The notes beneath the pieces were generated by a model that saw nothing but the letters and a program-made list of their open reading frames with translations, had not been told where the DNA came from and did no database searches. The translations under genes were made by a program, and so were the position numbers. DNA of 64,000 nucleotides, from positions 1,494 to 65,493 of the forward strand of contig JADGCS010000007.1 in assembly GCA_015228875.1 (NCBI GenBank), given 5' to 3'. Every line of letters starts with the position of its first letter. Within the stretch, counting starts at the first letter, position 1. This DNA is from Deltaproteobacteria bacterium. Lineage in GTDB: Bacteria; UBA10199; JADGCS01. Positions 14,183 through 47,961 of the stretch are shown piece by piece.

Positions 14183-14204
14183 TTAACACACCTTCAAGTT
14201 ACTA

Positions 14205-14277
14205 ACTTGACTCTGACGCGGTTGAGTTCCTTCGCTATGCGAGGCAGGCATCCGCGCCCTGTCAACTTTAAAATTCC
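14205..14277 (+). mobile_element. MITE copy 4 (short) between fliJ and fliI
   Basis: CAAGTTACTAACTTGACTCTGACGCGGTTGAGTTCC…CATCCGCGCCCTGTCAACTTTAAAATTCC. Confidence 0.75.
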
Positions 14278-14289
14278 CGGACATTACAC

Positions 14290-15618: not shown

Positions 15619-15650
15619 ATTCTGTCATCAAATAATTTTACAAGTTACCA

Positions 15651-15675
15651 ACCTGACCTTAATGCCTGTACATCA
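15651..15675 (+). mobile_element. MITE fragment (5' terminus only) between fliI and fliH
   Basis: CAAGTTACCAACCTGACCTTAATGCC matches the element terminus. The rest is missing. Confidence 0.45.
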
Positions 15676-15677
15676 AT

Positions 15678-16367: not shown

Positions 16368-16394
16368 CGTTTTATCTCCATCTGTTGCACCACA

Positions 16395-17447: not shown

Positions 17448-17479
17448 TTTTTCTCCACGCTATTTCTTAACTTGTTTTC

Positions 17480-17535
17480 TCCGCTGTGTATTCACATTCA
17501 CTGCACACACAAGTTACTCAATATGTACCCTCTCA
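17480..17535 (+). repeat. Possible degenerate MITE remnant in the fliG-fliF intergenic region
   Basis: CTTAACTTG…CACACAAGTTACTCAATATG reproduces only the CAAGTTAC/GTAACTTG terminal palindrome of the element. Confidence 0.3.
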
Positions 17536-20607: not shown

Positions 20608-20624
20608 TGCAAAAGAGGTGCCAA
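20608..20624 (-). promoter_or_regulatory. Consensus sigma-54 (-24/-12) promoter for the flgB operon
   Basis: The minus strand reads TTGGCAC-CTCTT-TTGCA, i.e. TGGCAC-N5-TTGC. It lies ~185 nt upstream of the flgB ATG. Confidence 0.7.
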
Positions 20625-28974: not shown

Positions 28975-29256
28975 TGTTTGTTCAAACAGTCTTTGCTAAA
29001 CACGACGCAGGTCATTGTCAATGGGTTAAATCAAGATGTAAGGACAACACCGTTTTTTCTAAAAAAAACAAGAAACTTTACACATGTCTGTCCGATGCTG
29101 CAGACAGGGGGATGCTTTGTCCAAGATTTTATTGATTCCAGAATTTTGAACACGGTGTGTCCATGATTTTTGGCAATGTGTATAAAATATTGGACACCCC
29201 GATGTTTTATAAATATAACTGTATAACAATTGTGACATTTAATTGTTTGATTTTTT

Positions 29257-29272
29257 GGCACAATGATTGCTT
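29257..29272 (+). promoter_or_regulatory. Consensus sigma-54 promoter for the NtrC-type regulator gene
   Basis: TGGCAC-AATGA-TTGCT on the plus strand, ~26 nt upstream of the ATG at 29298. A GGAGG RBS lies at 29285-29289. Confidence 0.65.
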
Positions 29273-29297: not shown

Positions 29298-30677
29298 ATG
29301 GATAATCACATTTTATTTATAGACGATGACAACACCTTTCTCGCAGGACAAAGGGACCTCTTGTCTGATCGATTTATGGTCTCAATAACCAGCAGTCTGG
29401 ACTCTGCGTTCTTGATTATCGAACAAAACCCTGTTGACCTCGTCTTTCTCGATGTTAACTTTGGATTAATAAAGGAAGGCATTAACTATTTAAGGGTTTT
29501 AAAAGAAAAAGACCCGTCCCTTGTGGTCATCATGCTTTCCGGGTGCAAGGATCCGGACCTTGTGGTGAGGGCCATTAAAAATGGGGCTGATGACTACATC
29601 TGCAAGCCCTGTCCTATCGGTGAGCTCATCGGTGTGATAGAAAAAAATCTCTCAAAAAAATCAGAAAAGGATAAAAGTGCCGCGTTGATCGAATACTGCA
29701 ACGATCAAAAAAACAAGATCAAGTTTTTAACCAATTCGGAAAAGGCAAAAGAGGTCTTAAGAAAGGCTGGCCTGTTAAAAGGGCATAACACCAATATTCT
29801 CATCGAGGGGGAGAGCGGCACGGGAAAAGAAGTTCTTGCCAAATACATTCACTCCCTCGAAAACAATCCCAAAAGACCTTTTATTGCCCTTAACTGCGCG
29901 GCCATTCCCGACAATCTTTTAGAGTCTGAGCTTTTTGGATACGAGCGGGGTGCATTTACGGGGGCCATCAAGAGAAAAATTGGCAAGTTTGAACTTGCTG
30001 ACAAGGGCGATATTTTTCTGGACGAAATCAATTCCCTTAAACCGGATTTTCAGGCAAAGCTCCTGCGTATCCTGCAGGAAAAAGAGTTTTATCGCGTGGG
30101 CGGGACAGTCTCTGTCAAAGTCAACGTGAGGGTGATTGTTGCCTCCAATAAAGACCTTCAGACCGAAGTCCTCGAAGGCCGATTTCGCCAGGACCTCTTT
30201 TACAGACTCAGGGTCATAGCGCTCACGATCCCGCCTTTAAGAGACAGACCAGAAGATGTCTCGCTGCTGTTTAACCATTTTATCAAGACCTACAAAAAAA
30301 ATGAGGGGTCCGTGGTCTTTTCACAAAACGCCCTCAAGGTCATTCAGGGCTATAGCTGGCCCGGCAATGTCAGGGAGTTGGAAAATCTGGTGCAGTCCCT
30401 CCTGATTGTCTCAGGGCATGGGGAGATCAAGGTGGAAAACCTCCCCGTCTGGATGCTCGGAAACAACAAGTTTAAACCCGAAGCCCGCGATCTCACAGAG
30501 CTTACTCACAACGAAATCACACGTGCGCTTAATTATTATATCGAAAAACACGAGAAGCTTATTATCAAAAAAGCCATAGAGGAAAATAAAGGAAACACCA
30601 CAGAGGCCGCTAAAGTTCTCAACATCAGCAGATCGACGCTCTATAACAAACTGAACAAAGAAGGGCTCGACGCCTGA
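29298..30677 (+). CDS. Sigma-54-dependent Fis-family response regulator (NtrC/FleR/PilR-type enhancer-binding protein)
   Basis: 459 aa. REC domain with a D52-like acceptor, AAA+ sigma-54 activator domain (GESGTGKEVLAKYIH, ESELFGYERGAFTGA), and a C-terminal Fis-type HTH. Confidence 0.9.
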   Translation: MDNHILFIDDDNTFLAGQRDLLSDRFMVSITSSLDSAFLIIEQNPVDLVFLDVNFGLIKEGINYLRVLKEKDPSLVVIMLSGCKDPDLVVRAIKNGADDYICKPCPIGELIGVIEKNLSKKSEKDKSAALIEYCNDQKNKIKFLTNSEKAKEVLRKAGLLKGHNTNILIEGESGTGKEVLAKYIHSLENNPKRPFIALNCAAIPDNLLESELFGYERGAFTGAIKRKIGKFELADKGDIFLDEINSLKPDFQAKLLRILQEKEFYRVGGTVSVKVNVRVIVASNKDLQTEVLEGRFRQDLFYRLRVIALTIPPLRDRPEDVSLLFNHFIKTYKKNEGSVVFSQNALKVIQGYSWPGNVRELENLVQSLLIVSGHGEIKVENLPVWMLGNNKFKPEARDLTELTHNEITRALNYYIEKHEKLIIKKAIEENKGNTTEAAKVLNISRSTLYNKLNKEGLDA

Positions 30678-30878
30678 CTCAAAATGTCACTAACGATAGA
30701 AAATACGTTTGACATTTTGACGCTGTGTGTGCTCCCATTTAAAGGGGCTTTTAACACAAGTTGATCTTTTAATAATAAATATCCCTGGGGTTTGTGTGTA
30801 CCAAAAGTCATAGAGAACCTCTGTAGTGTAAAGCAATGCTGATTTTTTGCGTTTGACATTATTTATCTCAGGAGTTTC

Positions 30879-33812
30879 ATGGTTCTTCCAACCCGACCAC
30901 CCTCGTCGGCCGTTAACCTGCCGGTCAGGCAACTCACACCAGGTGCCCCTGCCCCTGGTGCCCCTGCCCCTGGTGCCCCTGTGTCAGGTGGTGCTCCAGT
31001 CCCGTCGCGAGTTTTGCCATCGCCATCTCCTGATCATTTTGATCCCACCAAAAGGCCATCGGCCCCTTACATTTTTGTCCCTGCCAGTCCATGCGCATTA
31101 GGTGTTGACAGGTTTGCAAGCGAGCCACCAGCCAGTGTTTTGGGCCGCGGTAGACCGACCCATGTTGTCAAACTTACAGGGCCAGAAGCTGCTGTATTCA
31201 GTGCCATGCATCATGCTCGCGCAGCGTCACGACAGGCGACCGAGACTGTCTCAGAGGCTCAGGGAGCAATGCGCGAGCAGGGAGAACAGCGTCTCCAGGC
31301 GCTTTCTGTCATCCGCGAAACAGGTGTGATCGAGAGCGATCTTAAGGCCGCCGAAGGGCATTTCAAACAGGCAGAGACCGCTGTCAAAAAGGTCAACGCG
31401 TTCTTTGGTCCTTTAAGCAAGGGGGTAGGCGGTGCAACCAGAGAGTCTGCAGCAAAACAACTACGGGATCTTCTGGAGATGCAAAATTTTAACGAGATTG
31501 CGGCAATTGTAGATGCGTTTAAAATAAGTCATCCAGAAATCTTTAACCAAACAAACCTCGCGTCCTTTATAAAAAATGAAGCGCAAAAAACAAGTGATCT
31601 CGACAGCGAAGATCTTTCTCCCAATGCCATAAAGGACTTTATCGAAAAAACACTTCAGTGGGGAAGGCTTTATCTTAACTCTGCGGGCGATGCGCTTGCT
31701 GCAAGACTTAACGAGATCATCGCAAAAAATCCAGGCATGAACCTGGGCCCTCCTGTGGGCAGCATGAGCGCAGAGTCTGAGGCCCTCCTTCAAAGGGCCG
31801 AAGGGCTTACTCAACAGGCTAATGCCTTGGAAAAGTTGCTGTCAGAAGAGGACAAACTGCGCAGAAGCGCCATTCTGAGACAGACGAAAGAAGACTCCCT
31901 AACGCTGGGGGAGCTTAACAAAAACATCTCACGACTCGAAAAGCTTGTCGCAAAAAAAATCAAGGTCCAAGAGTACGCAGCTTTTCTCAACGACCCTGCC
32001 AACAACGATCCCGATAAACAGACAAAAATCAACCAGCAGACCGCGGAGCTTCAAAAGATAACCGCAGCAGAAGAGGAATTACAAACCCTCACGCAGCAAA
32101 GGCTGGCTGTCAATCAGCGCATAGACGCTGGCAAGAACGAAATGAACCACATCATGGGACCCATCCTTTCTTTGAGGGAAGAGTCCGGCCTGTTAAGACA
32201 ACAGGCAAAGGACCTTGTGGACAGCAGGTTGTCGGCATTCCGCAACGCTGTTGTGGACATAAGAACCGCTGCAGAACAAGTCGTTGAGGACTCTTACAAA
32301 CGCGAGGGCGAGATTATCTCCGGTCTCGTCGAAAATGCCGTTGATGTCTCCTACTCCGGCATGAAACTCTATAAGCAAGGCGCAGACAAGACAACAATAG
32401 AAACAAGAAAGGCTCATCTCGCTCAATATCAAAAAACACGACACCTTTATTATCAAATGCTTTCAGCAGCAGCACAGCTCTATAACGCATCCGTTGATTC
32501 TGATAAAGAGGCGTACGAAGCAAACAGCCAGCATATTGGCAAAAGCAAACAACTGCTCAAGGCCCATAAGCGACGGGTCACCGCACAAAGAGGCATGACC
32601 CTGCCCGAAGAGCAAAAGGGACGCGGTTTGTTTTATACAGATATGCCGGAGGGACTTAACCTTCCTGACCGCATCCCCCTCTTTGCACGCCCTGTACAAC
32701 GCAGTGCAGAAGGAAAATCTGTGGGCAAAGATGCGGCCTATATAGGTAGTGGCGAGATGCCCCGCTACTTCGACATTGCGCTTGGCACAGCTGTCATGTT
32801 TCAACACCCGGACGAGATTCTCCCAACAGATCAGGCCATTTTGCTGGATTTTCACGGCGCCACAACGCAGAACTCCAGCATCAACTCGCTGGGGTATGAT
32901 ATCGGCCTCTTTAACACCCGATTTGCGGACAGGACACCCAATAATACCCCGCAGAGGCTGATGGCCACTATAGGTTTTAGCAATCCCTTTCACGATCTTG
33001 GACCGCATGACCCCGCCCTTTATCAAATGCCTGAGCTGATTCGCTGGGTCTCTGCCATTGTCGAGAGGTACGGTGGTTATGACAAACCCATAGAACTCAA
33101 GGGCAGGAGCTTTGGGGCAAACCTTGTATTAGAATACAGACAGCAGGTCCGCGATTCAAAGGTCAGGCGGGTCTACGCCCAGTCCGGTTATAACGCCACA
33201 CCTTACTGGCTCTGGGAAGATTTTAAATCCCTCAGAGAAAGGGGGCGTCAGTTCTATCAGCCAGCCGTTGACTGGCTTAAGTTTCTTGAATCACAGTGGA
33301 CCTTCCTTGACCTTGCAGGTCAACCTCCAAACATGCAGGCTGTGCTTCTTGTGGGACTAAAGGATGACTACGTAAAAAAATCTCCAGCACAATACCCCGA
33401 AGATTTCTTAACGGCCCACCCGGAGTTTAGGGACAGGACTCCGGACGAGATCGGGCTCCTAAGTTTCTGGCTCTCTTTTTTAACAAAGAGTAAAAATGTA
33501 GATGCCAGGTTCTATCGTGATGGCGGACATTTTCTTTACAACGCCGATTTCGAAAGCCCGCATCTCATCGCACAGGTCTTACAAGACCTCGACGCATACT
33601 TCAGAAACAATCCCCAGAGATCCGATTTTCCTGGTTCAGGGGCAGACAAACCTGTTGGAGAACAACTGGCTGATTTTTTCAGACAGTTTGTCGCGCGCGG
33701 AGGTAACATCCATGCCGATCTTATCAACGATGAAGGCGTGTTAACACCGGAAGAGGCCATGAGGTTGTCAGGGCTGATCTTTGCGGGAGAGGGTGAAAGT
33801 GACAGGTCTTGA
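30879..33812 (+). CDS. Large hypothetical protein: Pro-rich repetitive N-terminus, long coiled-coil/Q-rich middle, C-terminal alpha/beta-hydrolase-like domain
   Basis: 977 aa. N-terminal PGAPAPGAPAPGAP repeats. A candidate nucleophile elbow GRSFG (LKGRSFGANLV), an acidic Asp in VGLKDDYV, and a His in RDGGHFLYN are in the right order for a Ser-Asp-His triad. Confidence 0.6.
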   Translation: MVLPTRPPSSAVNLPVRQLTPGAPAPGAPAPGAPVSGGAPVPSRVLPSPSPDHFDPTKRPSAPYIFVPASPCALGVDRFASEPPASVLGRGRPTHVVKLTGPEAAVFSAMHHARAASRQATETVSEAQGAMREQGEQRLQALSVIRETGVIESDLKAAEGHFKQAETAVKKVNAFFGPLSKGVGGATRESAAKQLRDLLEMQNFNEIAAIVDAFKISHPEIFNQTNLASFIKNEAQKTSDLDSEDLSPNAIKDFIEKTLQWGRLYLNSAGDALAARLNEIIAKNPGMNLGPPVGSMSAESEALLQRAEGLTQQANALEKLLSEEDKLRRSAILRQTKEDSLTLGELNKNISRLEKLVAKKIKVQEYAAFLNDPANNDPDKQTKINQQTAELQKITAAEEELQTLTQQRLAVNQRIDAGKNEMNHIMGPILSLREESGLLRQQAKDLVDSRLSAFRNAVVDIRTAAEQVVEDSYKREGEIISGLVENAVDVSYSGMKLYKQGADKTTIETRKAHLAQYQKTRHLYYQMLSAAAQLYNASVDSDKEAYEANSQHIGKSKQLLKAHKRRVTAQRGMTLPEEQKGRGLFYTDMPEGLNLPDRIPLFARPVQRSAEGKSVGKDAAYIGSGEMPRYFDIALGTAVMFQHPDEILPTDQAILLDFHGATTQNSSINSLGYDIGLFNTRFADRTPNNTPQRLMATIGFSNPFHDLGPHDPALYQMPELIRWVSAIVERYGGYDKPIELKGRSFGANLVLEYRQQVRDSKVRRVYAQSGYNATPYWLWEDFKSLRERGRQFYQPAVDWLKFLESQWTFLDLAGQPPNMQAVLLVGLKDDYVKKSPAQYPEDFLTAHPEFRDRTPDEIGLLSFWLSFLTKSKNVDARFYRDGGHFLYNADFESPHLIAQVLQDLDAYFRNNPQRSDFPGSGADKPVGEQLADFFRQFVARGGNIHADLINDEGVLTPEEAMRLSGLIFAGEGESDRS
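30942..30982 (+). repeat. In-frame 15-bp tandem repeat (GGTGCCCCTGCCCCT x ~2.7) encoding (GAPAP)n
   Basis: Direct tandem copies are visible in the sequence. The unit length is a multiple of 3. Confidence 0.7.
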
Positions 33813-33823: not shown

Positions 33824-34309
33824 CTACTGCATGGTGATCAGCCCCGAATTGTTTATCGTGATGGTCTTGGTGTCCCCATTTTCATTGCGCAGGACAAAAC
33901 TCCCATCGCCATTGATCGCTGTGGGTGTCCCCACATCATCAAAGGTCACTGTGTCAGAAGCGGGAAAGGTAATCCCGTGGTACTCCTCGCCCGTGTTTGA
34001 AAGGTCCTCTGACATGGGCAGGTGATCGTAAGGAGAGGTCACCACGGTATCGGTGGCCACCTCGTAGACTTCGTACGTTGTCCCGCCCGCACCACCGGTG
34101 GTCCTTACTCCGTGGTCATTGCCGGTTGTCATCGAAAGATTCTGCGCGTATCTCATGTCACCCTCTAGTTTTCTCGCGGCACCGTCCAGCGTGATCGCCT
34201 GCGTGTCTGCAAGCATGGGAAAGGACGAGATAGCCACAATGGATACAAGAGCAAGGACCAGGACAAGCTCCATGAGCGAAAAACCCAGATTGTTGAACAA
34301 AAGTTTTTT
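33824..34309 (-). CDS. Type IV pilus minor pilin/pseudopilin (FimT/GspH-like) with a prepilin N-terminal methylation motif
   Basis: N-terminus reads MKKLLFNNLGFSLMELVLVLALVSIVAI (G-F-S-L-M-E class III signal). Start chosen at MKK (34309) inside the longer track ORF. Confidence 0.6.
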   Translation of the reverse strand, partial: KKLLFNNLGFSLMELVLVLALVSIVAISSFPMLADTQAITLDGAARKLEGDMRYAQNLSMTTGNDHGVRTTGGAGGTTYEVYEVATDTVVTSPYDHLPMSEDLSNTGEEYHGITFPASDTVTFDDVGTPTAINGDGSFVLRNENGDTKTITINNSGLITMQ

Positions 34310-34365
34310 CATAAATATTGCAACCGACTTTAACCCTACAAACAGCAATTGAACCACACTAAGCG

Positions 34366-34471
34366 ACAGGAGATACGGGATTTAATTGGGTTCGGAGAGT
34401 CAAAGTTGCTCACCCAACGGGTGAAGCACGGGAAGTCGCGTAGAACCCAATTAAATCCCGTATCTCCTGTC
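34366..34471. repeat. 27-bp perfect inverted repeat flanking a 50-nt spacer (large hairpin / small MITE-like element) inside the minor pilin operon
   Basis: ACAGGAGATACGGGATTTAATTGGGTTC … GAACCCAATTAAATCCCGTATCTCCTGT. The spacer carries a nested CACCC-AAC-GGGTG hairpin. Confidence 0.7.
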
Positions 34472-34500
34472 GCCTTGTATTCTTAAACTGCCGCTTCCAG

Positions 34501-34532
34501 GTTAACAGCCCCTATGATCAGGGGCTGTTAAA
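34501..34532. repeat. Perfect 13-bp-stem palindrome 20 nt downstream of the pilX-like stop
   Basis: GTTAACAGCCCCT-atgatc-AGGGGCTGTTAAC. No flanking U-tract. Confidence 0.6.
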
Positions 34533-34551
34533 CAAATGCCATGACCAACAA

Positions 34552-36111
34552 CTACTGCACCTGAGAGAGGCTCATGATCACCACAAGGTCCTGAAAATCT
34601 GCGCCGGTTGTATCGCCTTCGTTCATGTTTGTCCCCAGCTCGAAGAGATAGATCACCTGATTGGCCTCTATACTGACAAGACCGGCCTCATCGAGATAGG
34701 GTTCCAAAAATTCGGCCACACTCTGCTGATCCCCAAAACCAACCATGGCAGGCGGGGCGTCTCCATTAACCAGCGTTTGCACCTGGCTTAAGTTTGTTGA
34801 GTTGTAGGTCCTGCTAAAATTGTTGCACGAGGCAAGGCTCGCCGTGGCACGTATGACGTAATCGCTTTCTGTTGTCGTGGTTGTTTCGTAGGACTCGCCA
34901 CCGTCTACATCGGCGCCGCTATAGAGTGCAGAGCAGACATTATCCTTGCAAAGCTCGACACTGACGTTGATTTCGGCCCCACCCACACCACAGGTGATCG
35001 AGGAACCAATGACATCAAGGTCGACAAGGTAGTTGGTCTCGACAGTGACCACCCCGTTTGTGACCTCAAAACCCTCTCCCAGAGCAGCAGAGGCATCAGG
35101 GACATCACCCGCCCTGAAGGTGCTTTCAAGATGACTGCCGTCCGAGAAATCAAAGCGGACCGTGTACCAGCCGCCGGAGACAGGTTCTGCTGAAAAAGTT
35201 GCATCAACCAGATAATTGTTGTCGTTATCTGTCAGGTTGAAATTGGAAACGTCGATCTCCTGTCCGGCAGAGGCCGCTGCTGTTGTTGCTGCGGGGATCT
35301 CTCCCACCTTAAAGATAGAGGTTCCGTTGACATCAATCTGTTGCACCGTTGCGTCCAGGGTCTCGTCCTCACAGGCCGCAAGATCAACAAGCTGATCCCC
35401 GCTTGCCGTGCATGAGGTCACAACGGGAAGATCTGCCTCGCAGGGACCTATATAATCCTGATTGTGATGTTCACCCTCTCCATTGTTGTGGCCATTGCGC
35501 CACCCGGCCTCGTTAACAGAAAGTGTGTGCGCGTTTTCGGGATTCCCCGGCGGCACATGGCAGATCCAGAACTTGCCGTTTGGAGGCTCGCCAATACCCG
35601 ACTGGTCTGCCTCACATCCGATACCTACAGCGCACGCGCTCCAGTCCCATGACACTGTTACCTTGGTCAGGATAGCCACTTCATTACAGCCCTTGTCCAG
35701 CGACATATTAAAAACCTGGTTATCCTGCTTGATGGCCGTACTTAAAACATCATCGACACAACTCCCCGCAAAATTGGCATTGATGGTCTGGGTCTTGACG
35801 GCATTGCCCACAGTCGCTGTGACGGTGATGGTCCCGGCTGCAGGATCGGTGGTCACATCAAAAGAACCCTTGCCGTCGAAGGTCTTGTTTGTCACAGCGG
35901 GGTCGTCTCCTTTGGAGAGTTTGTCCAGCGCCCATTGAATCCCCCCGTTACCGTAGGCCAGTGCCTTGACAGAATCGCTGTGATTGGCAGAACTGGATGT
36001 GTCGGTTCCCGAGATATTAACCACGGTTGTCGCCGCCGCAGCAAGCACAACCATCACCACAACCGCACCCAGCAGACTGCTCCCTCTGTTGTTTTTAAGA
36101 GTGTTAAACAT
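34552..36111 (-). CDS. PilX-like type IV pilus minor pilin / putative tip-associated protein (large, Cys-rich)
   Basis: 519 aa. The N-terminus (MFNTLKNNRGSSLLGAVVVMVVLAAAATTV) resembles the PilX N-terminal domain. The rest is Thr/Asp/Gly-rich with many Cys. Position after pilV/pilW. Confidence 0.5.
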   Translation of the reverse strand: MFNTLKNNRGSSLLGAVVVMVVLAAAATTVVNISGTDTSSSANHSDSVKALAYGNGGIQWALDKLSKGDDPAVTNKTFDGKGSFDVTTDPAAGTITVTATVGNAVKTQTINANFAGSCVDDVLSTAIKQDNQVFNMSLDKGCNEVAILTKVTVSWDWSACAVGIGCEADQSGIGEPPNGKFWICHVPPGNPENAHTLSVNEAGWRNGHNNGEGEHHNQDYIGPCEADLPVVTSCTASGDQLVDLAACEDETLDATVQQIDVNGTSIFKVGEIPAATTAAASAGQEIDVSNFNLTDNDNNYLVDATFSAEPVSGGWYTVRFDFSDGSHLESTFRAGDVPDASAALGEGFEVTNGVVTVETNYLVDLDVIGSSITCGVGGAEINVSVELCKDNVCSALYSGADVDGGESYETTTTTESDYVIRATASLASCNNFSRTYNSTNLSQVQTLVNGDAPPAMVGFGDQQSVAEFLEPYLDEAGLVSIEANQVIYLFELGTNMNEGDTTGADFQDLVVIMSLSQVQ

Positions 36112-36194
36112 ACACGTACCCCCTTCTTTTTGGAAACTGGTTTTAGTAAACTATTAAATACCCCCCCACAACAAAACAAGACTCTCATGCACTG

Positions 36195-36743
36195 CTACTG
36201 ATAATTAACATACCCCAAAAAAGATCTGGGGATCACCGTTGTGCTCAGGGTGATACTCCCCTCTTCGTCCATAGGCTCGGTGGTCACCGTGATTTTAAAC
36301 CGTCTCACATCGGTAATACTGCCATCAACAGGCTCCAACACAGCACCGGTGCCATCTTGATACTCGATATCAAAGTCCTCAACCTTGGGAATAATAACGT
36401 CACTGTTACGAAAGACAGCAAGGCTCCCTCCGCTTGCGGACAGGCTGAATGTGGCCGGCTGCCCGTCTTCGTCTATAAAGCTCATGCTGCTTGCCGTGAT
36501 GCTGGAGATGTCCGTTGTTTCGAAATAGCGTATTTCGTGCACCATGCGATTTACAGCGTAACGCACATCGGCGATGGTGGTTTTTCTGTTGGCAATAAAG
36601 GAATAGGTCTTTGCCTGCTGAATCATGGTCTCGGAGGCGACACCAAAGATAATCCCCGCAATCACAATGGAAAGCACGATCTCAAACAGGGTAAAACCCC
36701 CGCTGCTTTTGAGACGCATTGACATGCTGCTGTTTTTTTTCAT
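36195..36743 (-). CDS. PilW-like type IV pilus minor pilin (prepilin-type N-terminal domain)
   Basis: Prepilin motif SGGFTLFEIVLSIVIAGIIF. The start is uncertain (36743 or 36725/36719) inside the longer track ORF. Confidence 0.55.
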   Translation of the reverse strand: MKKNSSMSMRLKSSGGFTLFEIVLSIVIAGIIFGVASETMIQQAKTYSFIANRKTTIADVRYAVNRMVHEIRYFETTDISSITASSMSFIDEDGQPATFSLSASGGSLAVFRNSDVIIPKVEDFDIEYQDGTGAVLEPVDGSITDVRRFKITVTTEPMDEEGSITLSTTVIPRSFLGYVNYQ

Positions 36744-37199
36744 TACGGCTCCCAAAGATGATCTGTATTCCTTGTGTCGCGGCATAGCACACCCATTAAA
36801 TTCCTTCCATCTTTTTTGTCCCCCCAGGCGATCCCTCAATTGATCAGAAGCAACCTCTGTGCCAACAATGCGCCACCTTTTCGCTTCACGGCAAAACTTT
36901 TATGCAACCAGCGCATTTTATTTTGCAAACTCCGCTCTGCCCGACCAGCTTCTGATTACTGCTGGCCATCTCCACCGTGATGGTGTCCCAAAAAAATATA
37001 TGCAGAACACAGGCCAACCAAAACCATGTCTTCAGGGAGTAAATGAGAAGGGTTGGGAAGGTGCCGGGCTTGAAACACCCTCCCAACCCAGGGAAGTGAA
37101 AAACAGAGAAGATCAACCTTTAACATCAACAGCAAACCGTGCGCGCTTCTTTCTCACAGGGAGACACAGATCTCATCACCACCCCCACATTCAGCACAA

Positions 37200-37661
37200 C
37201 TACATCACCCCTACAACAGCCTCCTCACCTGCAGATCCAATATCGGCAACAAGGGTGGATACCATGACTTTTTGATTATCTTCTGTACCCCAACGCACCA
37301 CAACGTCGACCTTCTTTATCCCGCTCCCCTCCTCCGGTGTGGTCAGATCGCTGGCAGATACCTCTGTGATCGTAACGATCCTGATGTATCCCTCAAAATC
37401 CCCTGTGAGTGTCTCGGCCGCGTACGTTTGAGAGTCTTCCACAATGTAACTGTAACCCACAAACTGATTATCAGCGAGTATACTTTCCACCTTTTCATTG
37501 GCAAGCTGAGAAGCAACTACGCTCATCTCCCGGTTGACAGACCGAGAGAGCGACCCCTGAGTCACACCCAAGCCACCCATCACGATGATCGAAAGGATGA
37601 CAACAGACAGCAGAGACTCCATGAGTGAAAAGCCTCTATTGTTTTTGAGCGATCTAATCAT
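37200..37661 (-). CDS. pilV: Type IV pilus modification protein PilV-like minor pilin
   Basis: N-terminus reads MIRSLKNNRGFSLMESLLSVVILSIIVMGGLG, a PilV-type motif. Start chosen at MIR (37661). Confidence 0.65.
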   Translation of the reverse strand: MIRSLKNNRGFSLMESLLSVVILSIIVMGGLGVTQGSLSRSVNREMSVVASQLANEKVESILADNQFVGYSYIVEDSQTYAAETLTGDFEGYIRIVTITEVSASDLTTPEEGSGIKKVDVVVRWGTEDNQKVMVSTLVADIGSAGEEAVVGVM

Positions 37662-37700
37662 ACCCCCCCCAAAGACCATTGCTTCCCCACATCACTCCCA

Positions 37701-37716
37701 AGCAACCCTTGTGCCA
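37701..37716 (-). promoter_or_regulatory. Consensus sigma-54 promoter upstream of the pilV-pilW-pilX-fimT minor pilin operon
   Basis: The minus strand reads TGGCAC-AAGGG-TTGCT. It lies ~25-40 nt upstream of the pilV start. Confidence 0.6.
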
Positions 37717-37912
37717 AAAGACTGACATTTTTATACCGCATTGATATCAAATGAAATTTTATGCCCCTTGTTTTGTGGCGCTGGTTTTTTAAATCCAAAC
37801 AAGAAACAAGTGCCATCAATTTGTGATGATTTGTTACGTTTGTGGGGATCGACACAAGAGGAAGGCTTTTTTTACCGTGATTATCAACCTCAAGCAAGCT
37901 AGTAACCGTCTC

Positions 37913-40137: not shown

Positions 40138-42408
40138 TTGTTTTACTCCCACGAACCTGCCATCTTTTTTTTCATGGCACTGGCAATCCCCGCGTATCTG
40201 ACACCCTCTGCGCCCTTAACATCAGGGAATCTCAGTGCTGTCTGGCAAGGGCCCCCCCCCGATACAAGCCGTTCATTCTTTTCGCCAGAAATGCAGTCTT
40301 ACTTTGAGGGGCTCACCACCAGAGGGCTTGTGCGCAGGCCCCCCGCCCTGTTTAATGCAACACAACAGCGGGTGTTCTGTCCGCCCGGCCTCAGAGAATC
40401 AGCACAAATCACAGAAACACGCAGGCCCCCCGCCACACACGAGGACCCCATTGTTCATGCCGATCCTTTCCGTTGGCTCGAAACAGACTCGCCAGAGCGC
40501 GACCGCTGGCTCTCTGCTCAAAACGCTTATTCAAAGCGTTTTTTTAGAGGACTCAAGTGTCACACACGGTGGGAGTCCATCTTTAGAAATCTTTTTAACG
40601 AACCCAATGTCATAAAGTCCGTTGATCTTGGCGATCTCAGCATAGAACTGATCGACAGGGGTCTTAACAAACCAACCGAGCTTGTTGTCAAAAAGGGTGG
40701 CAAGGAAATCAAAACCCTCTTTTCAACCCACAGCCTTGCGCGCAACGGCACTGCCGCAGCCACAAGTTTCGAGATCGATCCCAACCAAAAATACGTGATC
40801 CTGCCCGTGTCCCGCAGGGGTTCCATCGATAACTACGATCTTTACGTTATCAACATCCGTACAGGCAAAACGCTTGAAATAGTCAAAAACGCTAGGGGCA
40901 ACGGCTGGCTCTCCTGGCTGTCGGCGGATACCTTTAAGTACAACAGACTTGTCGGTAGGGACGAGATTACACTTATTCATAAACTGGGGAGCAGCAGGGA
41001 TGGGATAGGGCAGGACAGGTTTTTAGAAACCAACGCCCGATTCTTTAACTCAAAAGATCGGGATGTCGTCTTTCGCAGCACACCGGACAACACATGGGTC
41101 AAAGCAATGAGCGGCAGCAAATGGAAACGCCTTAATGTGGTTGTTCAAAGGGACTTTGGCCAGATTGGCGATGAAAGACTTGTAGAAATCAAACACAATG
41201 GCAAAACAAAACTTGCCAAATTGACACTCAACAATACCACAGAGGGACAAGCCAGGGCTGCTACCGTGCAAGTTGTTCACGAAGCACAAGAAGACGCTGT
41301 GATAAAAAACATCACAAGAAACGAAGATCACATCGTGATACATTACGCTTATGGCAAAAAGCAGTGGCTGGAAGTCCTTAAATCCGATGGCACAAAAGAG
41401 AACGCATTCGACCTGCCTGATTGTTTTTCAATCACCCACATGGATTTTGTGGACAAGACCACATTAACGCTGACACTCACCTCTAATGTCATCAGAAAAA
41501 AAGACTTCAAGTTCGATATTGCAACGGGCCTTTTTGTTGACGCTGATCCTCAAACGGAGATGACAACCGATGAAAAGGGGCAGGTGTTTGTCACAGAGTA
41601 TGTTGAGGTGGTCAGCAAGGACGGTACAAAGGTGCCGGTGAGACTCACTTATAAAAAGGGGCTTGTTAAAAATGGGCAAAACCCCGTGCTGATCGAGGGG
41701 TATGGCGGCTTTAATGTCCCCGGGCATTTTTATCCCGCGTTCAGCACACAATTAAAACACTTTATCGATCATGGTGGCGTCTACGTAGCCCCTGCCTTAA
41801 GGGGAGGAAACGAACTTGGAGAGAGCTGGCACAAACAGGGCATGAAAGAAAAAAAACAAAACGTCTTTAACGATCTCTTTGCCACCGCAGAGTTTCTTAT
41901 TAAAGACCAGCTCACGCAGCCAAAAAAGATCGCCGCAATGGGTTGGTCAAACGGCGGGCTGCTCATGGCGGTTGCCGCCACCCAGCGTCCCGATCTTTTT
42001 GGTCTTATCATTGCCGGTAATGGTGTTCACGACATGCTCAGGCGCGACAATCTTGATCCCGAGTTTAACGACGGCTGGGCTTATGAGTACGGCCATACCC
42101 AAGACCCCAGGCAGTGGCCTTATTTCGAGGCCTATTCACCCGTCCATAACGCACGCCCCAGTCCCCACATGCCAACGGTGCTTGTCCTTGTTGGCAGAAA
42201 CGACTCGCGGGTTGACCCCGCCCACTCCTATAAGTTTGCCGCAGCCCTGCAGAAGGTGAGTCACCCGGATCAAAAAATTCTCTTAAGCAGCATGCCCAAT
42301 GCCGGCCACTGGATGACGTACGAAGATCTGCAGGATCTCATTGGCTGGTGCAGCAATGCGCGTATCTGGTCCACCATTTTTGAAACGCTGGGGATGGAGG
42401 TGGCTTGA
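40138..42408 (+). CDS. Prolyl oligopeptidase (S9A serine peptidase) with an unusual Pro-rich N-terminal extension
   Basis: Beta-propeller plus alpha/beta hydrolase with GWSNGG nucleophile. The PEP N-terminal motif (VHADPFRWLETDSPERDRWLSAQNAYSKRFF) begins ~100 aa into the ORF. The true start is uncertain. Confidence 0.85.
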   Translation: MFYSHEPAIFFFMALAIPAYLTPSAPLTSGNLSAVWQGPPPDTSRSFFSPEMQSYFEGLTTRGLVRRPPALFNATQQRVFCPPGLRESAQITETRRPPATHEDPIVHADPFRWLETDSPERDRWLSAQNAYSKRFFRGLKCHTRWESIFRNLFNEPNVIKSVDLGDLSIELIDRGLNKPTELVVKKGGKEIKTLFSTHSLARNGTAAATSFEIDPNQKYVILPVSRRGSIDNYDLYVINIRTGKTLEIVKNARGNGWLSWLSADTFKYNRLVGRDEITLIHKLGSSRDGIGQDRFLETNARFFNSKDRDVVFRSTPDNTWVKAMSGSKWKRLNVVVQRDFGQIGDERLVEIKHNGKTKLAKLTLNNTTEGQARAATVQVVHEAQEDAVIKNITRNEDHIVIHYAYGKKQWLEVLKSDGTKENAFDLPDCFSITHMDFVDKTTLTLTLTSNVIRKKDFKFDIATGLFVDADPQTEMTTDEKGQVFVTEYVEVVSKDGTKVPVRLTYKKGLVKNGQNPVLIEGYGGFNVPGHFYPAFSTQLKHFIDHGGVYVAPALRGGNELGESWHKQGMKEKKQNVFNDLFATAEFLIKDQLTQPKKIAAMGWSNGGLLMAVAATQRPDLFGLIIAGNGVHDMLRRDNLDPEFNDGWAYEYGHTQDPRQWPYFEAYSPVHNARPSPHMPTVLVLVGRNDSRVDPAHSYKFAAALQKVSHPDQKILLSSMPNAGHWMTYEDLQDLIGWCSNARIWSTIFETLGMEVA

Positions 42409-43868: not shown

Positions 43869-43884
43869 TGGCACGGTCTTTGCT
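43869..43884 (+). promoter_or_regulatory. Consensus sigma-54 promoter upstream of the Cys-rich protein / J-domain paralog operon
   Basis: TGGCAC-GGTCT-TTGCT on the plus strand, ~115 nt upstream of the ATG at 43998. Confidence 0.6.
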
Positions 43885-43997: not shown

Positions 43998-44588
43998 ATG
44001 AAGTCATGTTTACAAGTTACTCACTTGACTTTGACGCGATTGAATTCCTTCATTTTGCGAGGAGTGCGCCCGCGCTCTGTCGACTTTAAAATTCCTATCC
44101 ATAAACATGCCGCCATCGTTTTTTTGTATTTTATCGTTTTGTTCCTCCCTTTTTTAAGCCTTGCAAAAGAAAAGAGGGATGGGCCAGACTGCAAGGGTAA
44201 GTGCTCTGTCATCAATAAACAATGCGATGCGCATTGTGCGTTAAGTCCCAACGCGGGCGATTGTCAAAAGGGGTGCAATGCCTCCTTTAAGGATGCCAAG
44301 GGTTACTGCCTGAGTAGTTGTGCCACACAGCCCACGTTTTTAGAGCCTTGTCCCGGCTCGGGGGACGACCCCTCCGTCGAAAAAACCGAGGACGACTGTC
44401 TGTATTCCTGTGAGGATCACTACAGCAACTGTGTGCTGTCCTGCAGGGGCCATTTTGAAGGCGGTTCTCCCGGGATCAAAAACTGCTACAACAGCTGTAA
44501 CGATACCTTTGCCGAGGAAGAGGGGTTCTGCAAGTTTCAGTGCAGAACCGATTTTGATTTTATGGCGGTGTGTGCGGCAGAGGAATAG
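43998..44588 (+). CDS. Small Cys-rich, probably secreted, protein whose 5' end is formed by a MITE copy
   Basis: 196 aa. A hydrophobic segment (AAIVFLYFIVLFLPFLSLA) is followed by ~26 Cys in CxxxC/CxxC arrays. Codons 5-33 are translated from the MITE copy at 44013-44095. A GGGGGTG RBS precedes the ATG. Confidence 0.5.
   Translation: MKSCLQVTHLTLTRLNSFILRGVRPRSVDFKIPIHKHAAIVFLYFIVLFLPFLSLAKEKRDGPDCKGKCSVINKQCDAHCALSPNAGDCQKGCNASFKDAKGYCLSSCATQPTFLEPCPGSGDDPSVEKTEDDCLYSCEDHYSNCVLSCRGHFEGGSPGIKNCYNSCNDTFAEEEGFCKFQCRTDFDFMAVCAAEE
44013..44095 (+). mobile_element. MITE copy 8 (short) inside the 5' coding region of the Cys-rich protein gene
   Basis: CAAGTTACTCACTTGACTTTGACGCGATTGAATTCC…GTGCGCCCGCGCTCTGTCGACTTTAAAATTCC, translated as QVTHLTLTRLNSFILRGVRPRSVDFKIP. 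Confidence 0.8.
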
Positions 44589-44851
44589 CAAATATTTACA
44601 TCACGTCTTACCCATTTTTTTTGCCCCATTGAGTGGACACTTTGCGGTGTAAACCTTGCGTCCGCTTCCATGTTTTTTTTCACATATTTCAAAACATTGG
44701 GAATTCAGAAAAAAAAAAATCAAGCAACTTGCAAAAGCCCCTCAACGATAGAGCGACACGGCGACATTCGGGTTGGATATTCTTTTGAGCCATCCCACTT
44801 TTGTTTGCCAATAAATTTACAATCAAGGGTGTGTTGAAAAATGCCCCAAAC

Positions 44852-44932
44852 GTCATTGCGAGCGAAGCGCGGCAATCCAGAAGTGCTCGAAATTACTGGA
44901 TTGCCGCGCTCACTACATGCGCTCGCAATGAC
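44852..44932. repeat. Composite 13+14-bp perfect inverted repeat (long interrupted hairpin) 47 bp upstream of the paralog A start
   Basis: GTCATTGCGAGCG-aa-GCGCGGCAATCCAG-(15-nt loop)-CTGGATTGCCGCGC-tcactacat-GCGCTCGCAATGAC. Confidence 0.7.
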
Positions 44933-44978
44933 GAAATTACCATTTTTCAACAGTCCAATCAATCGCATTGAGTAGAAT

Positions 44979-47684: not shown

Positions 47685-47712
47685 AAAATACTTGGAATAA
47701 AAATAAAAAGTA

Positions 47713-47748
47713 CCTGGCACCAAAAAAAATTTGGCACCAAAAAAAATT
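47713..47748 (+). repeat. Tandem 18-bp direct repeat (C)CTGGCACCAAAAAAAAT x2 upstream of the paralog B gene
   Basis: Direct duplication is visible. Each unit carries a TGGCAC (-24-like) hexamer but no TTGC -12 element. Confidence 0.6.
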
Positions 47749-47961
47749 CATCGCGACTGTCAGTCAAAAAAACTTCCCAAAAAAAGAAAACAAATAATCA
47801 AGCAATATCCACAACATACAGGGTATAAAAAAAACAGGCAACACGCAGGCCCCTGGCGACGATATTCCTGGTATGTTTAGGAGCAAACATAAGGTCGGAT
47901 GTTTTTTGTATCCCTCTGACTTTTGTATTAAAAAATCACAAACAAAGGTAGCAATTTAAAA

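What the first reader, a model, noticed from the sequence alone, without database searches (positions are those of the whole stretch)
30879..33812. 977-aa protein with (GAPAP)n repeats, long coiled coil and a C-terminal Ser-Asp-His alpha/beta-hydrolase-like domain, downstream of the sigma-54 regulator
The architecture has no obvious housekeeping counterpart. It comprises a Pro-rich, length-variable N-terminus (15-bp in-frame STR at 30942-30982), ~450 aa of Gln/Glu/Lys-rich heptad-like sequence, then a domain with GRSFG, LKDDYV and GGHF in the order expected for an esterase or lipase catalytic triad. This resembles secreted phospholipase or effector proteins of host-associated bacteria. The STR could mediate phase or length variation. 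Two direct CGTTTGACATT repeats (~30708 and ~30852) lie in its upstream region.
Basis: partly seen in the sequence, partly recalled or inferred. Interest (0 to 1): 0.6.

Follow-up and report, generated by a model that had tools for sequence, protein, structure and literature searches.

The report
Rare coiled-coil-tethered serine hydrolase, orphan family
This gene encodes a large protein with a floppy proline-rich start, a long helical stalk and a lipase-like serine hydrolase at its end; it belongs to a very rare, undescribed family from uncultured bacteria, so the enzyme type is familiar but the architecture and biological role are not.

Summary
The ORF (30879-33812, +, 977 aa), the 15-bp in-frame repeat, the three motifs and the upstream 11-mer repeats are all real. 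The C-terminal ~300 aa are very probably an active alpha/beta-hydrolase. Across 15 distant relatives the GxSxG serine (Ser744), Asp829, His884 and the oxyanion-type HG (659-660) are invariant or nearly so. A family profile hits monoacylglycerol lipases in the PDB (E 1e-7), with Ser and Asp on the crystallographic catalytic residues. An AlphaFold model built with the alignment (pLDDT 81) has the canonical strand/helix order and matches 879 PDB hydrolase chains.

The "450-aa coiled coil" is really four heptad-like blocks (about 216 aa) broken by prolines. The repeat (2.7 copies, in frame) cannot cause phase variation.

The protein has no signal peptide, no Pfam or NCBIfam hit, and only 21 relatives among 1.84 billion cluster representatives; none were found in 185,579 reference genomes. 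Relatives share a new ~140-aa helical pre-domain. They usually sit beside a conserved ~900-aa partner gene in islands of large orphan genes, and this window lacks that partner.

A lipid-ester substrate is the best guess. Export as an effector is possible but untested.

The parts
30879..33812 (+). Complete ORF, 977 aa plus stop codon; modular serine hydrolase
30870..30874 (+). Shine-Dalgarno-like AGGAG, 4 nt before the ATG
   Evidence: read directly from the sequence
30879..31178 (+). Pro-rich (23% Pro), low-complexity N-terminal region, aa 1-100. No hydrophobic signal peptide and no acidic residue in the first 25 aa. No detectable homolog.
30942..30981 (+). 15-bp in-frame tandem repeat, 2.7 perfect copies, encoding (GAPAP)2-GAP
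31179..32618 (+). Helical region, aa 101-580. Heptad-like blocks at aa 103-177, 293-359, 388-427 and 441-474 (nt 31185-31409, 31755-31955, 32040-32159, 32199-32300), interrupted by prolines. Only aa ~345/400 onward aligns with relatives.
32268..32699 (+). Family-specific pre-domain, aa 464-607 (EGE-IISGLVENAVD ... YYQMLSAAAQLY ... MTLPEEQKGRGLFY ... PDRIPLFARP). Conserved in 13 long family members. No Pfam or PDB relative.
32700..33608 (+). Alpha/beta-hydrolase catalytic domain, aa 608-910, MGL/Hydrolase_4-like
32853..32858 (+). His659-Gly660, the 'HG' oxyanion-hole motif directly after strand beta3 (Gly invariant in the family)
33102..33116 (+). Nucleophile elbow GRSFG (aa 742-746). Ser744 (codon 33108-33110) lies between strand beta5 and helix C. 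G, S and G are invariant in 15 of 15 sequences.
33363..33365 (+). Asp829, the catalytic acid in the loop after strand beta7. At least 90% conserved; aligns to Asp203 of PFL and Asp251 of Yju3p.
33528..33530 (+). His884, the catalytic base in the loop after strand beta8. Invariant; aligns to His281 of Yju3p.
33609..33809 (+). C-terminal tail, aa 911-977, unique to this protein and low-confidence in the model. It contains GVLTPEEAMRLSGLIFAGEGES, which weakly resembles a motif in the relatives' partner proteins.
30679..30720 (+). Perfect 11-bp inverted repeat TCAAAATGTCA-N20-TGACATTTTGA, starting 2 nt after the regulator's stop codon. As RNA it folds at -17.7 kcal/mol (z = -3.9), with no T-run after it. 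Candidate protein-binding palindrome or inter-cistronic hairpin.
30850..30860 (+). Second copy of CGTTTGACATT (the first is at 30706-30716, inside the inverted repeat), 19 nt before the ATG
29256..29271 (+). Sigma-54 promoter-like TGGCACAATGATTGCT, 27 nt before the regulator's ATG. It is the only recognisable promoter upstream of the regulator-target gene pair.
29298..30677 (+). Sigma-54-dependent response regulator (REC + AAA+ Sigma54_activat + HTH_8), upstream on the same strand, with a 201-bp gap to the target

Best explanation
The gene encodes a modular, signal-peptide-less serine hydrolase. Residues ~608-910 form a canonical alpha/beta-hydrolase domain most similar to monoacylglycerol-lipase / lysophospholipase-type enzymes. 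Ser744 in a GRSFG nucleophile elbow, activated by His884 and Asp829, attacks an ester carbonyl, and the tetrahedral intermediate is stabilised by backbone amides after His659-Gly660 and after Ser744.

The catalytic domain is welded to a family-specific ~140-aa helical pre-domain (aa 464-607). In front of that lie ~360 aa of fast-evolving, segmented coiled-coil-like helices and a ~100-aa disordered Pro-rich N-terminus. These N-terminal parts are inferred to act as a stalk or targeting module that oligomerises the enzyme or positions it at its site of action.

The most likely substrate class is a lipid ester (monoacylglycerol or lysophospholipid-like). The protein is a solo member of a very rare, undescribed family whose other members are usually paired with a conserved ~900-aa partner protein.

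Shown: the fold, the triad, the architecture, the rarity and the partner synteny in relatives. Inferred: catalytic activity (probability about 0.85), a lipid-ester substrate (about 0.5), and the role of the N-terminal region.
For: The triad and oxyanion motifs are invariant or nearly so across 15 sequences sharing only 22-46% identity.

The family profile hits PDB monoacylglycerol lipases (6qe2 E 1.2e-7; yeast 4zwn/4zxf about 3e-6). Its Ser and Asp fall on Ser87/Asp203 of PFL, and its Ser, Asp and His on Ser123/Asp251/His281 of Yju3p. Nine of 15 members match Pfam Hydrolase_4, 7 match Abhydrolase_6 and 6 match Abhydrolase_1.

AlphaFold2 with the alignment gives pLDDT 81.2 and pTM 0.81. The strand/helix order is canonical: HG after beta3, Ser164 (model numbering) between strand 158-163 and helix 165-176, Asp249 after strand 238-246, and His304 after strand 292-299. 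Foldseek finds 879 PDB chains at E<=1e-3, topped by human, yeast and mycobacterial MGL and ABHD6.

There is no signal peptide or TM segment. The pre-domain is conserved in 13 long members, and the same overall layout is seen in the long relatives.

Rarity: 22 cluster representatives among 1.84 billion; only the protein itself among 5.8 billion clusters by word index; none in GTDB species genomes or JGI contigs. Partner synteny and co-expansion appear in the relatives.
Against: The target itself scores below threshold for every Pfam and NCBIfam hydrolase model. The assignment therefore rests on the family profile and a predicted structure.

TM-scores to solved MGLs are moderate (0.38-0.44 normalised to the query, 0.50-0.65 to the target). 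The cap region and binding pocket cannot be compared.

The Hydrolase_4 / Abhydrolase_6 clade also contains peptidases, thioesterases, dehalogenases and C-C hydrolases, so the substrate class is not determined.

The coiled-coil call rests on a home-made heptad heuristic. No expression or activity data exist.
Confidence: 0.6

Rival explanations
1. Exported effector or toxin lipase. The acid-poor, Pro/Ser/Thr-rich N-terminus is a non-Sec export signal (type III-like, possibly using the flagellar export apparatus, or another contact-dependent route). The helical stalk and pre-domain mediate chaperone or partner binding or membrane targeting. The hydrolase attacks membrane lipids of a prey, host or competitor cell. 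This differs from the best explanation only in where the enzyme acts.
For: No Sec or Tat signal, yet a large, fast-evolving, patchily distributed protein.

In the relatives, the family and its ~900-aa partner are co-expanded inside islands of large genes without Pfam matches. L006 has 3 hydrolase paralogs plus 3 partner paralogs, L007 has tandem paralogs, and an RHS/YD toxin lies next to P0014.

The N-termini of family and partner proteins have fewer acidic residues (1.1 vs 2.5 per 25 aa, p = 0.003) and more S/T/P/Q (p = 0.002) than ordinary proteins of the window.

A complete flagellar type III export apparatus lies 12-30 kb away. There is precedent: the Yersinia phospholipase YplA is exported by the flagellar T3SS through an N-terminal signal (PMC4336687, PMC2764114). 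One distant short member, from Bdellovibrio sp. HCB290, has a classical signal peptide, so the domain works outside the cytoplasm in at least one lineage.
Against: No injectisome, T4SS or T6SS gene appears in the window or in any relative's 20-kb neighbourhood. There is no match to known effector-lipase families such as Tle, patatin/ExoU or GDSL, and none to PADLOC.

The N-terminal compositional bias is modest and equally expected for any disordered region. A lack of Pfam hits in neighbours may simply reflect a poorly sampled lineage. The lifestyle of the organism is unknown. The partner is absent from this window.
Confidence: 0.25
2. A non-lipid hydrolase. The domain is an S33-type aminopeptidase, peptide esterase or thioesterase that acts in peptide or amino-acid scavenging, and the helical region is an oligomerisation scaffold.
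For: The best Pfam family among relatives is PF12146, which Pfam describes as 'Serine aminopeptidase, S33'. Relatives' loci repeatedly carry M20, M3, M4, M28 and M61 peptidases, OPT oligopeptide transporters, DUF819 and amino-acid transporters. A prolyl oligopeptidase lies 6 kb downstream in the window. Thioesterases and dipeptidyl peptidases are among the fold matches.
Against: The best sequence-profile and fold matches are consistently monoacylglycerol lipases, not peptidases. The peptidase and transporter neighbours are not adjacent to the target in this window, so in the relatives they may be lineage-specific synteny and not a functional link.
Confidence: 0.12
3. A catalytically dead pseudo-enzyme: the hydrolase fold is kept only as a binding or structural module of a large scaffold protein.
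For: The target falls below all curated hydrolase model thresholds. It has an arginine at the x position of the GxSxG elbow (GRSFG) where most hydrolases have His/Asp/Tyr-type residues. That Arg is itself family-conserved.
Against: Ser, His, the elbow glycines and the HG glycine are invariant, and Asp is at least 90% conserved, across sequences that have diverged to 22-46% identity. That is the pattern expected under selection for catalysis.
Confidence: 0.03

Closest known systems
Monoacylglycerol lipase / lysophospholipase-type alpha/beta-hydrolases (Pfam PF12146 Hydrolase_4; e.g. Palaeococcus PFL 6qe2, yeast Yju3p 4zwn, human MGLL 3hju, M. tuberculosis Rv0183)
   Same: Alpha/beta-hydrolase core, GX-type HG oxyanion motif, GxSxG elbow, and Asp and His after beta7 and beta8. 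These are the best profile hits (E 1e-7) and the best fold hits. The catalytic residues align.
   Different: Those enzymes are about 250-330-aa single-domain proteins. This one is 977 aa, with about 600 aa of N-terminal non-enzymatic sequence and a novel pre-domain. Sequence identity is about 10-15%. The target does not reach the Pfam gathering score. It has an insertion between the Asp and His strands (aa ~830-870), and its cap is not comparable with the tools available.
YplA of Yersinia enterocolitica (phospholipase exported by the flagellar type III apparatus)
   Same: A lipolytic enzyme lacking a Sec signal whose N-terminus directs export (PMC4336687, PMC2764114). The target also lacks a Sec signal and is encoded in a flagellated organism.
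   Different: No sequence relationship was detected. YplA is small and has no coiled-coil stalk. Export of the target is entirely untested.
Mycobacterial PE/PPE-domain lipases such as LipY (from general knowledge, not tested here)
   Same: The architecture is analogous: an N-terminal non-Sec secretion or targeting module, a linker, and a C-terminal alpha/beta-hydrolase lipase. A PE-PPE protein appears among weak viral-library fold matches.
   Different: No PE or PPE domain is present. LipY belongs to the hormone-sensitive-lipase family, not the MGL-like family, and the phylum and export system (ESX) are different.
T6SS Tle lipase effectors and patatin-like effectors (ExoU, VipD)
   Same: Large lipolytic effectors with GxSxG motifs and accessory domains, often in variable gene islands.
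   Different: No match to their Pfam families in the target or its relatives. No VgrG, PAAR, Hcp or small immunity genes are nearby. Patatin enzymes use a Ser-Asp dyad, not the Ser-Asp-His triad seen here.

Membership tests
Alpha/beta-hydrolase fold superfamily | Central mostly parallel beta-sheet flanked by helices in the order b3-aA-b4-aB-b5-aC-b6-(cap)-b7-aE-b8-aF | tested here: met
   AlphaFold2 model with a 15-sequence alignment, pLDDT 81.2, pTM 0.81, with secondary-structure elements in this order. 879 PDB chains at Foldseek E<=1e-3, all alpha/beta-hydrolases among the top 50.
Alpha/beta-hydrolase fold superfamily | Nucleophile elbow G-x-S-x-G between strand beta5 and helix C | tested here: met
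   GRSFG at aa 742-746. G, S and G are invariant in 15 of 15 sequences. In the model it sits between strand 158-163 and helix 165-176, and it aligns to Ser87 of PFL and Ser123 of Yju3p.
Alpha/beta-hydrolase fold superfamily | Catalytic acid after beta7 and histidine after beta8 | tested here: met
   Asp829 is at least 90% conserved and His884 is invariant. They lie in the loops after strands 238-246 and 292-299 of the model, and align to Asp203 (PFL) and to Asp251/His281 (Yju3p).
Alpha/beta-hydrolase fold superfamily | Oxyanion-hole motif (HG, GX type) after beta3 | tested here: met
   DFHG at aa 657-660, directly after strand 73-78 of the model. The Gly is invariant.
Alpha/beta-hydrolase fold superfamily | Ser, His and Asp side chains within hydrogen-bonding distance in 3D | not testable with these tools
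   The model's coordinates are not exposed to the scripting environment. Only the topological positions could be checked.
Alpha/beta-hydrolase fold superfamily | Hydrolytic activity dependent on the serine | not testable with these tools
   Requires an enzyme assay or activity-based probe with an S744A control.
Pfam PF12146 Hydrolase_4 (MGL / lysophospholipase-like) | Whole-protein score at or above the gathering threshold (27 bits) | tested here: not met
   The target gives no Pfam hit even at E<=1. Distant relative P0014 reaches 32 bits, and 9 of 15 members hit at E<=1, best 4.7e-14. The family is therefore a divergent outlier of this clade; the target itself cannot be filed as a member by the curated criterion.
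Pfam PF12146 Hydrolase_4 (MGL / lysophospholipase-like) | MGL-type cap and preference for monoacylglycerol or lysophospholipid | not testable with these tools
   The cap region (aa ~770-815) is modelled as two helices, but no structural superposition or assay was possible.
Sec/Tat-secreted bacterial lipases (including type II secretion substrates) | N-terminal signal peptide | tested here: not met
   Maximum 12-residue hydropathy in the first 50 aa is 0.68, and the maximum 19-residue hydropathy anywhere is 0.93. Only the distant Bdellovibrio member P0016 has a signal peptide.
Type III (injectisome or flagellar) secretion substrates | N-terminal ~25 aa with an export-signal-like composition (acid-poor, Ser/Thr/Pro-rich) | tested here: inconclusive
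   There is no Asp or Glu in the target's first 25 aa. Family plus partners differ from ordinary window proteins (p = 0.003 and 0.002), but the same bias is expected for any disordered N-terminus.
Type III (injectisome or flagellar) secretion substrates | Demonstrated export dependent on the apparatus; a dedicated chaperone | not testable with these tools
   A flagellar export apparatus is encoded at 660-19068. No chaperone-like small gene is adjacent, and no experiment was possible.
T6SS Tle / patatin / GDSL effector lipases | Match to the corresponding domain families | tested here: not met
   No such Pfam family appears among the hits of the target or of 15 relatives; the only one listed is Lipase_3 at E 0.19 in one member.
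Phase-variable contingency locus (simple-sequence-repeat switch) | A repeat tract whose copy-number change shifts the reading frame or alters promoter spacing, usually with many copies | tested here: not met
   The unit is 15 bp (a multiple of 3), lies inside the ORF, and has only 2.7 copies. Variation among strains could not be tested because only one record exists.
Known anti-phage defence proteins (PADLOC) | Match to a PADLOC model | tested here: not met
   No hit for the target, for P0002 or for the partner protein.

The most novel reading that the evidence does not exclude
The protein and its relatives, together with the ~900-aa partner family, form a previously unrecognised two-family arsenal of non-Sec-exported effectors in an uncultured deltaproteobacteria-like lineage. 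The variable N-terminus and stalk would direct export (possibly through the flagellar type III apparatus) and targeting. The conserved pre-domain would dock the partner. The MGL-like domain would degrade membrane lipids of prey, host or competitors. In this window the partner gene has been lost or moved, and a partner-like motif may have been captured in the C-terminal tail.
Probability: 0.2. Interest if true: 0.65.

Novelty: new variant of a known kind. Interest (0 to 1): 0.4.

Why it matters
The chemistry is almost certainly ordinary serine-hydrolase chemistry, so the enzyme class is not new. Three things are new.

First, the protein belongs to a distinct and extremely rare family: 22 clusters among 1.84 billion, none in 185,579 reference genomes.

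Second, the family has an undescribed ~140-aa helical pre-domain fused to the hydrolase.

Third, in relatives the family is genetically coupled to, and co-expanded with, an equally uncharacterised ~900-aa partner family, inside islands of large orphan genes.

If these turn out to be exported lipases with dedicated partners, they would define a new effector module in a poorly known bacterial lineage. They could also hint at a predatory or host-associated lifestyle for it. If they are cytoplasmic, they would be an unusual case of a lipid hydrolase tethered to a long coiled-coil stalk. Either way, the catalytic domain is now well enough defined (boundaries, triad, alignment) to be expressed and assayed directly.

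Tried and rejected
- **Single-sequence AlphaFold2 of aa 581-977:** unusable (pLDDT 34). It was replaced by the alignment-based model.
- **Word-index homolog search:** the whole protein found only itself. The domain alignment returned nothing at all, apparently a limitation of the word prefilter.
- **Pattern scans:** two scans of the GTDB species genomes and one of the JGI metagenome contigs found no relatives.
- **Exact look-up of the target's own contig:** not on record.
- **Other libraries:** PADLOC, Rfam and tRNA scans found nothing relevant.
- **N-terminal 463 aa and the pre-domain profile:** no significant PDB relative. Erlin-2, PaxB and FixK2 at E 0.1-0.9 were treated as noise.
- **Window orphans as diverged partner homologs:** the 901- and 915-aa paralogs (44979-50709) were tested and rejected. 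The partner HMM's best hit in the window has E 0.16, and hhalign probability is 0.1%.
- **Tail-to-partner motif similarity:** it survived 1,999 of 2,000 shuffles but scores only 4 bits, with hhalign probability 0.7%. It is kept as an unexplained lead, not a finding.
- **A dedicated promoter for the target:** no sigma-70-like site on the + strand and no -24/-12 site in the 201-bp gap. The TTGACA inside the second CGTTTGACATT copy would place a -10 element on the start codon, so it was rejected as the promoter for this start.
- **Taxonomy from DnaE:** uninformative. The best non-self hit is 69% identical, and named hits are only 'Deltaproteobacteria', 'Pseudomonadota' or 'bacterium' MAGs.
- **Base composition:** no evidence of recent horizontal transfer (GC 0.51, GC3 0.51, against 0.53-0.60 in neighbours).


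Full report
**1. The observation**

The ORF 30879..33812 (+) exists, starts with ATG and encodes 977 aa. AGGAG lies 4 nt upstream of the ATG. The protein is identical to NCBI hypothetical protein HQM16_02445 of a 'Deltaproteobacteria bacterium' MAG, on a 65,640-bp contig.

Tandem Repeats Finder reports a perfect 15-bp repeat (GGTGCCCCTGCCCCT) at 30942-30981 with 2.7 copies. It encodes GAPAP-GAPAP-GAP at aa 22-34. GRSFG (aa 742), LKDDYV (aa 827) and GGHF (aa 882) are present in that order, and DFHG sits at aa 657.

The 11-mer CGTTTGACATT occurs exactly twice, at 30706 and 30850. The upstream gene is a sigma-54-dependent response regulator with REC, Sigma54_activat and HTH_8 domains. The description is therefore accurate.

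The one overstatement is the 'long coiled coil'. A crude heptad-register score compared with shuffles finds four proline-free heptad-like blocks: aa 103-177, 293-359, 388-427 and 441-474, 216 aa in all. They are separated by prolines. The region is better described as a segmented helical stalk than as one 450-aa coil.

**2. The C-terminal domain is an alpha/beta-hydrolase with an intact triad**

The target matches no Pfam or NCBIfam model, and a word-indexed search of 5.8 billion protein clusters found only the protein itself. An exhaustive phmmer search with aa 581-977 against 1.84 billion cluster representatives found 21 relatives. The closest are 39-48% identical, about 1,000 aa long, and carry the domain at the C-terminus.

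An alignment was built of the target and 14 relatives (22-46% identity to the target). The following are invariant: the Gly of the HG motif (aa 660), His705 and Gly708 in a PFHxFGP motif, Gly742, Ser744 and Gly746, and His884. Asp829 is at least 90% conserved.

A profile of this alignment hits solved monoacylglycerol lipases best: 6qe2 at E 1.2e-7 and yeast 4zwn/4zxf at about 3e-6.
- Counting along those alignments, the family Ser and Asp fall on Ser87 and Asp203 of the Palaeococcus lipase. Its crystallographic triad is Ser87-Asp203-His233 (PMC8065475).
- The Ser, Asp and His also fall on Ser123, Asp251 and His281 of Yju3p (PMC2911655), after allowing for the 21-residue offset of the 334-residue construct.

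Nine of the 15 members match Pfam Hydrolase_4 individually (best 4.7e-14), seven match Abhydrolase_6 and six match Abhydrolase_1.

A single-sequence AlphaFold model was useless (pLDDT 34). With the alignment the model reached pLDDT 81.2 and pTM 0.81. Its elements follow the canonical order, in model numbering:
- HG directly after strand 73-78.
- Ser164 between strand 158-163 and helix 165-176.
- Asp249 after strand 238-246.
- His304 after strand 292-299.

Foldseek against the PDB gave 879 matches at E<=1e-3. The top hits are human, yeast and mycobacterial monoglyceride lipases and ABHD6, with TM 0.50-0.65 normalised to the targets. I could not measure inter-residue distances because coordinates are not exposed. 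Spatial clustering of the triad is therefore inferred from topology, not measured.

**3. The rest of the protein**

Residues 1-100 are 23% proline, and no hydrophobic stretch qualifies as a signal peptide or TM helix. The maximum 19-residue hydropathy anywhere is 0.93.

Homology to relatives begins at about aa 345-400. It is strongest in a ~140-aa pre-domain, aa 464-607. That pre-domain carries the motifs EGE-[LI]-[VI]-S-W..V..AVD, E-F-Y-Q..A.AA..Y-R, M-T-L-P.E-Q.G-R-G.F-Y and P-D-R-I-P-L, shared by 13 long members. It has no Pfam match and no PDB relative. The N-terminal 463 aa have no PDB relative either.

The long relatives have the same layout although their N-regions are not alignable. 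Each has an N-terminal 100 aa rich in P/S/T/G/A/Q, then 180-300 aa of heptad-like segments, then the pre-domain, then the hydrolase.

The last 67 aa (911-977) are unique to the target and poorly modelled.

**4. Distribution and genomic context**

All relatives are singletons or near-singletons from metagenome assemblies (Logan, ENA/TARA, JGI). The exception is one short, signal-peptide-bearing member annotated 'alpha/beta fold hydrolase' in Bdellovibrio sp. HCB290. Two pattern scans of one genome per GTDB species and one scan of JGI contigs found nothing.

In the relatives' loci the hydrolase gene is immediately preceded by a conserved 857-969-aa protein with no Pfam domain.
- In L006 there are three hydrolase-family paralogs and three partner paralogs within 20 kb.
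- In L007 there are two hydrolase paralogs in tandem.
- P0014 lies next to a 2,130-aa RHS/YD-repeat protein.

The two families are therefore genetically coupled and co-expanded, within islands of large unannotated genes.

This window has no partner homolog. tblastn found none, the partner HMM's best hit has E 0.16, and hhalign against the window's own 901- and 915-aa orphan paralogs gives probability 0.1%.

The window context is a sigma-54 regulator upstream and a convergent minor-pilin/pseudopilin cluster 11 bp downstream. It is not seen in any relative's locus, so it is probably not functionally diagnostic.

A DnaE search gave no useful taxonomy; the best non-self hit is 69% identical. One DnaE homolog at 62% identity has the same longest-contig length (1,461,608 bp) as family member P0023. 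This suggests that at least some carriers belong to one broad lineage.

**5. Regulation**

The only recognisable promoter upstream is a sigma-54-type TGGCACAATGATTGCT at 29256, 27 nt before the regulator's ATG. The 201-bp gap between the regulator and the target has no sigma-70-like site on the + strand and no -24/-12 site.

The gap does contain a perfect 11-bp inverted repeat (30679-30689 / 30710-30720). As RNA it folds at -17.7 kcal/mol (z = -3.9), but it is not followed by a T-run.

TGACATT occurs at the chance rate in the window overall (14 observed, 12.5 expected). However, three copies lie within 178 bp here, about 0.003 after correcting for scanning. Two more sit 17 nt and 7 nt upstream of sigma-54 -24 elements, at 29256 and 37716.

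My inference is that these are binding sites for a regulator, and that the target is either co-transcribed with the response regulator or controlled through these sites. This is not shown.

**6. The STR**

A 15-bp in-frame unit with 2.7 copies can only add or remove five residues in a disordered segment. It cannot switch the gene off. Only one copy of the sequence exists in the databases, so copy-number variation is untested.

**7. Mechanism and rivals**

The best-supported statement is that this is an active serine hydrolase of the MGL/lysophospholipase-like branch, tethered to a helical stalk through a family-specific pre-domain. I put activity at about 0.85 and a lipid-ester substrate at about 0.5.

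Where it acts is open. An export or effector reading is compatible with several observations:
- The missing Sec signal.
- Fast N-terminal divergence.
- The co-expanded partner family in orphan-gene islands.
- The RHS neighbour of P0014.
- A modest but significant N-terminal compositional bias. Acidic residues average 1.1 vs 2.5 per 25 aa (p = 0.003) and S/T/P/Q are higher (p = 0.002), shared by family and partners.
- The precedent of the flagellar-T3SS-exported phospholipase YplA (PMC4336687, PMC2764114). A full flagellar export cluster is present in the window.

Against it, no dedicated secretion genes accompany any family member. The compositional bias is also what disorder alone would give, and sparse Pfam coverage is expected in an unsampled lineage. 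I give the effector reading about 0.2-0.25.

A peptide or thioester substrate is suggested by the peptidase- and transporter-rich neighbourhoods of relatives. I give it about 0.12. A dead pseudo-enzyme is unlikely given the conservation pattern.

**8. Comparison with known families, and verdict**

The protein works like an MGL-type alpha/beta-hydrolase, and it meets every sequence and topology criterion of the superfamily that I could test. It does not meet the curated Pfam Hydrolase_4 threshold, so I do not file it as a member of that family. It is a divergent sister group.

It is not one of the following:
- A Tle, patatin or GDSL effector lipase.
- A Sec-dependent lipase.
- A PADLOC defence protein.
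- A contingency locus.

The enzyme kind is known. The family, the pre-domain, the architecture and the partner coupling are undescribed as far as these libraries show. I rate it a new variant of a known kind, of moderate interest.

Noticed in passing
window 29256-29271 (+), 36849-36864 (-), 37701-37716 (-), 43869-43884 (+), 20608-20623 (-): Five near-consensus sigma-54 promoter-like sites (TGGCAC-N5-TTGCW). They lie just upstream of the response-regulator gene, of two minor-pilin genes, of the orphan gene at 43998, and at 20608. This suggests a sigma-54 regulon covering the pilin cluster and the orphan operon. The regulator at 29298 may be PilR-like.
   Followed up: partly
window 33824-37679 (-): A cluster of four prepilin-type genes convergent with the target, with an 11-bp gap: a GspH-like gene (33824-34357), a 519-aa PilX_N/GspK-like gene (34552-36111), and two N_methyl-motif proteins (36195-36839 and 37200-37679).
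   Followed up: partly
window 43998-52734 (+): A run of unannotated genes: a 196-aa ORF, two 901- and 915-aa paralogs (45% identical over their full length), and a 662-aa ORF. None has a Pfam hit, and none is related to the target or to the relatives' partner family. The 196-aa ORF shares a 31-aa stretch (61% identity) with the 901-aa protein. A sigma-54-like site precedes the run.
   Followed up: partly
window 660-19068 (-): A large flagellar cluster: FlhA, FlhB, FliR, FliP, FliO, FliM/N, FliL, FlgE, FlgD, FliK, FliI, FliH, FliG and FliF. The organism is therefore flagellated and has a flagellar type III export apparatus.
   Followed up: partly
window 30679-30720: A perfect 11-bp inverted repeat (TCAAAATGTCA / TGACATTTTGA, 20-nt spacer) starting 2 nt after the regulator's stop codon. 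The RNA hairpin folds at -17.7 kcal/mol (z = -3.9) but has no T-run after it. It is not a canonical terminator and may be an operator.
   Followed up: partly
window 29225-29247 and 37723-37729: TGACATT also occurs 17 nt upstream of the -24 element of the regulator's sigma-54 promoter, embedded in a palindrome AACAATT...AATTGTT. It occurs again 7 nt upstream of the -24 element of the pilin-gene sigma-54 site at 37716.
   Followed up: no
window 33729-33803 (aa 951-975 of the target): The tail motif GVLTPEEAMRLSGLIFAGEGES weakly resembles a motif conserved near the C-termini of the relatives' partner proteins (for example ATGVATPEDATLLKGLYEAGEGS). Only 1 of 2,000 shuffles scored higher, but the score is just 4 bits and hhalign probability is 0.7%.
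   Followed up: yes
L006:2219-21559; L007:730-6300: Relatives' loci hold multiple paralogs of both the hydrolase family and the ~900-aa partner family. L006 has three of each, plus a VapBC toxin-antitoxin pair. L007 has two hydrolase paralogs in tandem.
   Followed up: yes
JGI sample 3300075153, contig carrying P0014 (no DNA available): A family member with the hydrolase domain near its N-terminus lies next to a 2,130-aa DUF6531-RHS/YD-shell protein and a 946-aa orphan.
   Followed up: no
window 40138-42408 (+): A second, ordinary alpha/beta-hydrolase in the window: an S9 prolyl oligopeptidase with its beta-propeller domain. It is unrelated to the target.
   Followed up: no
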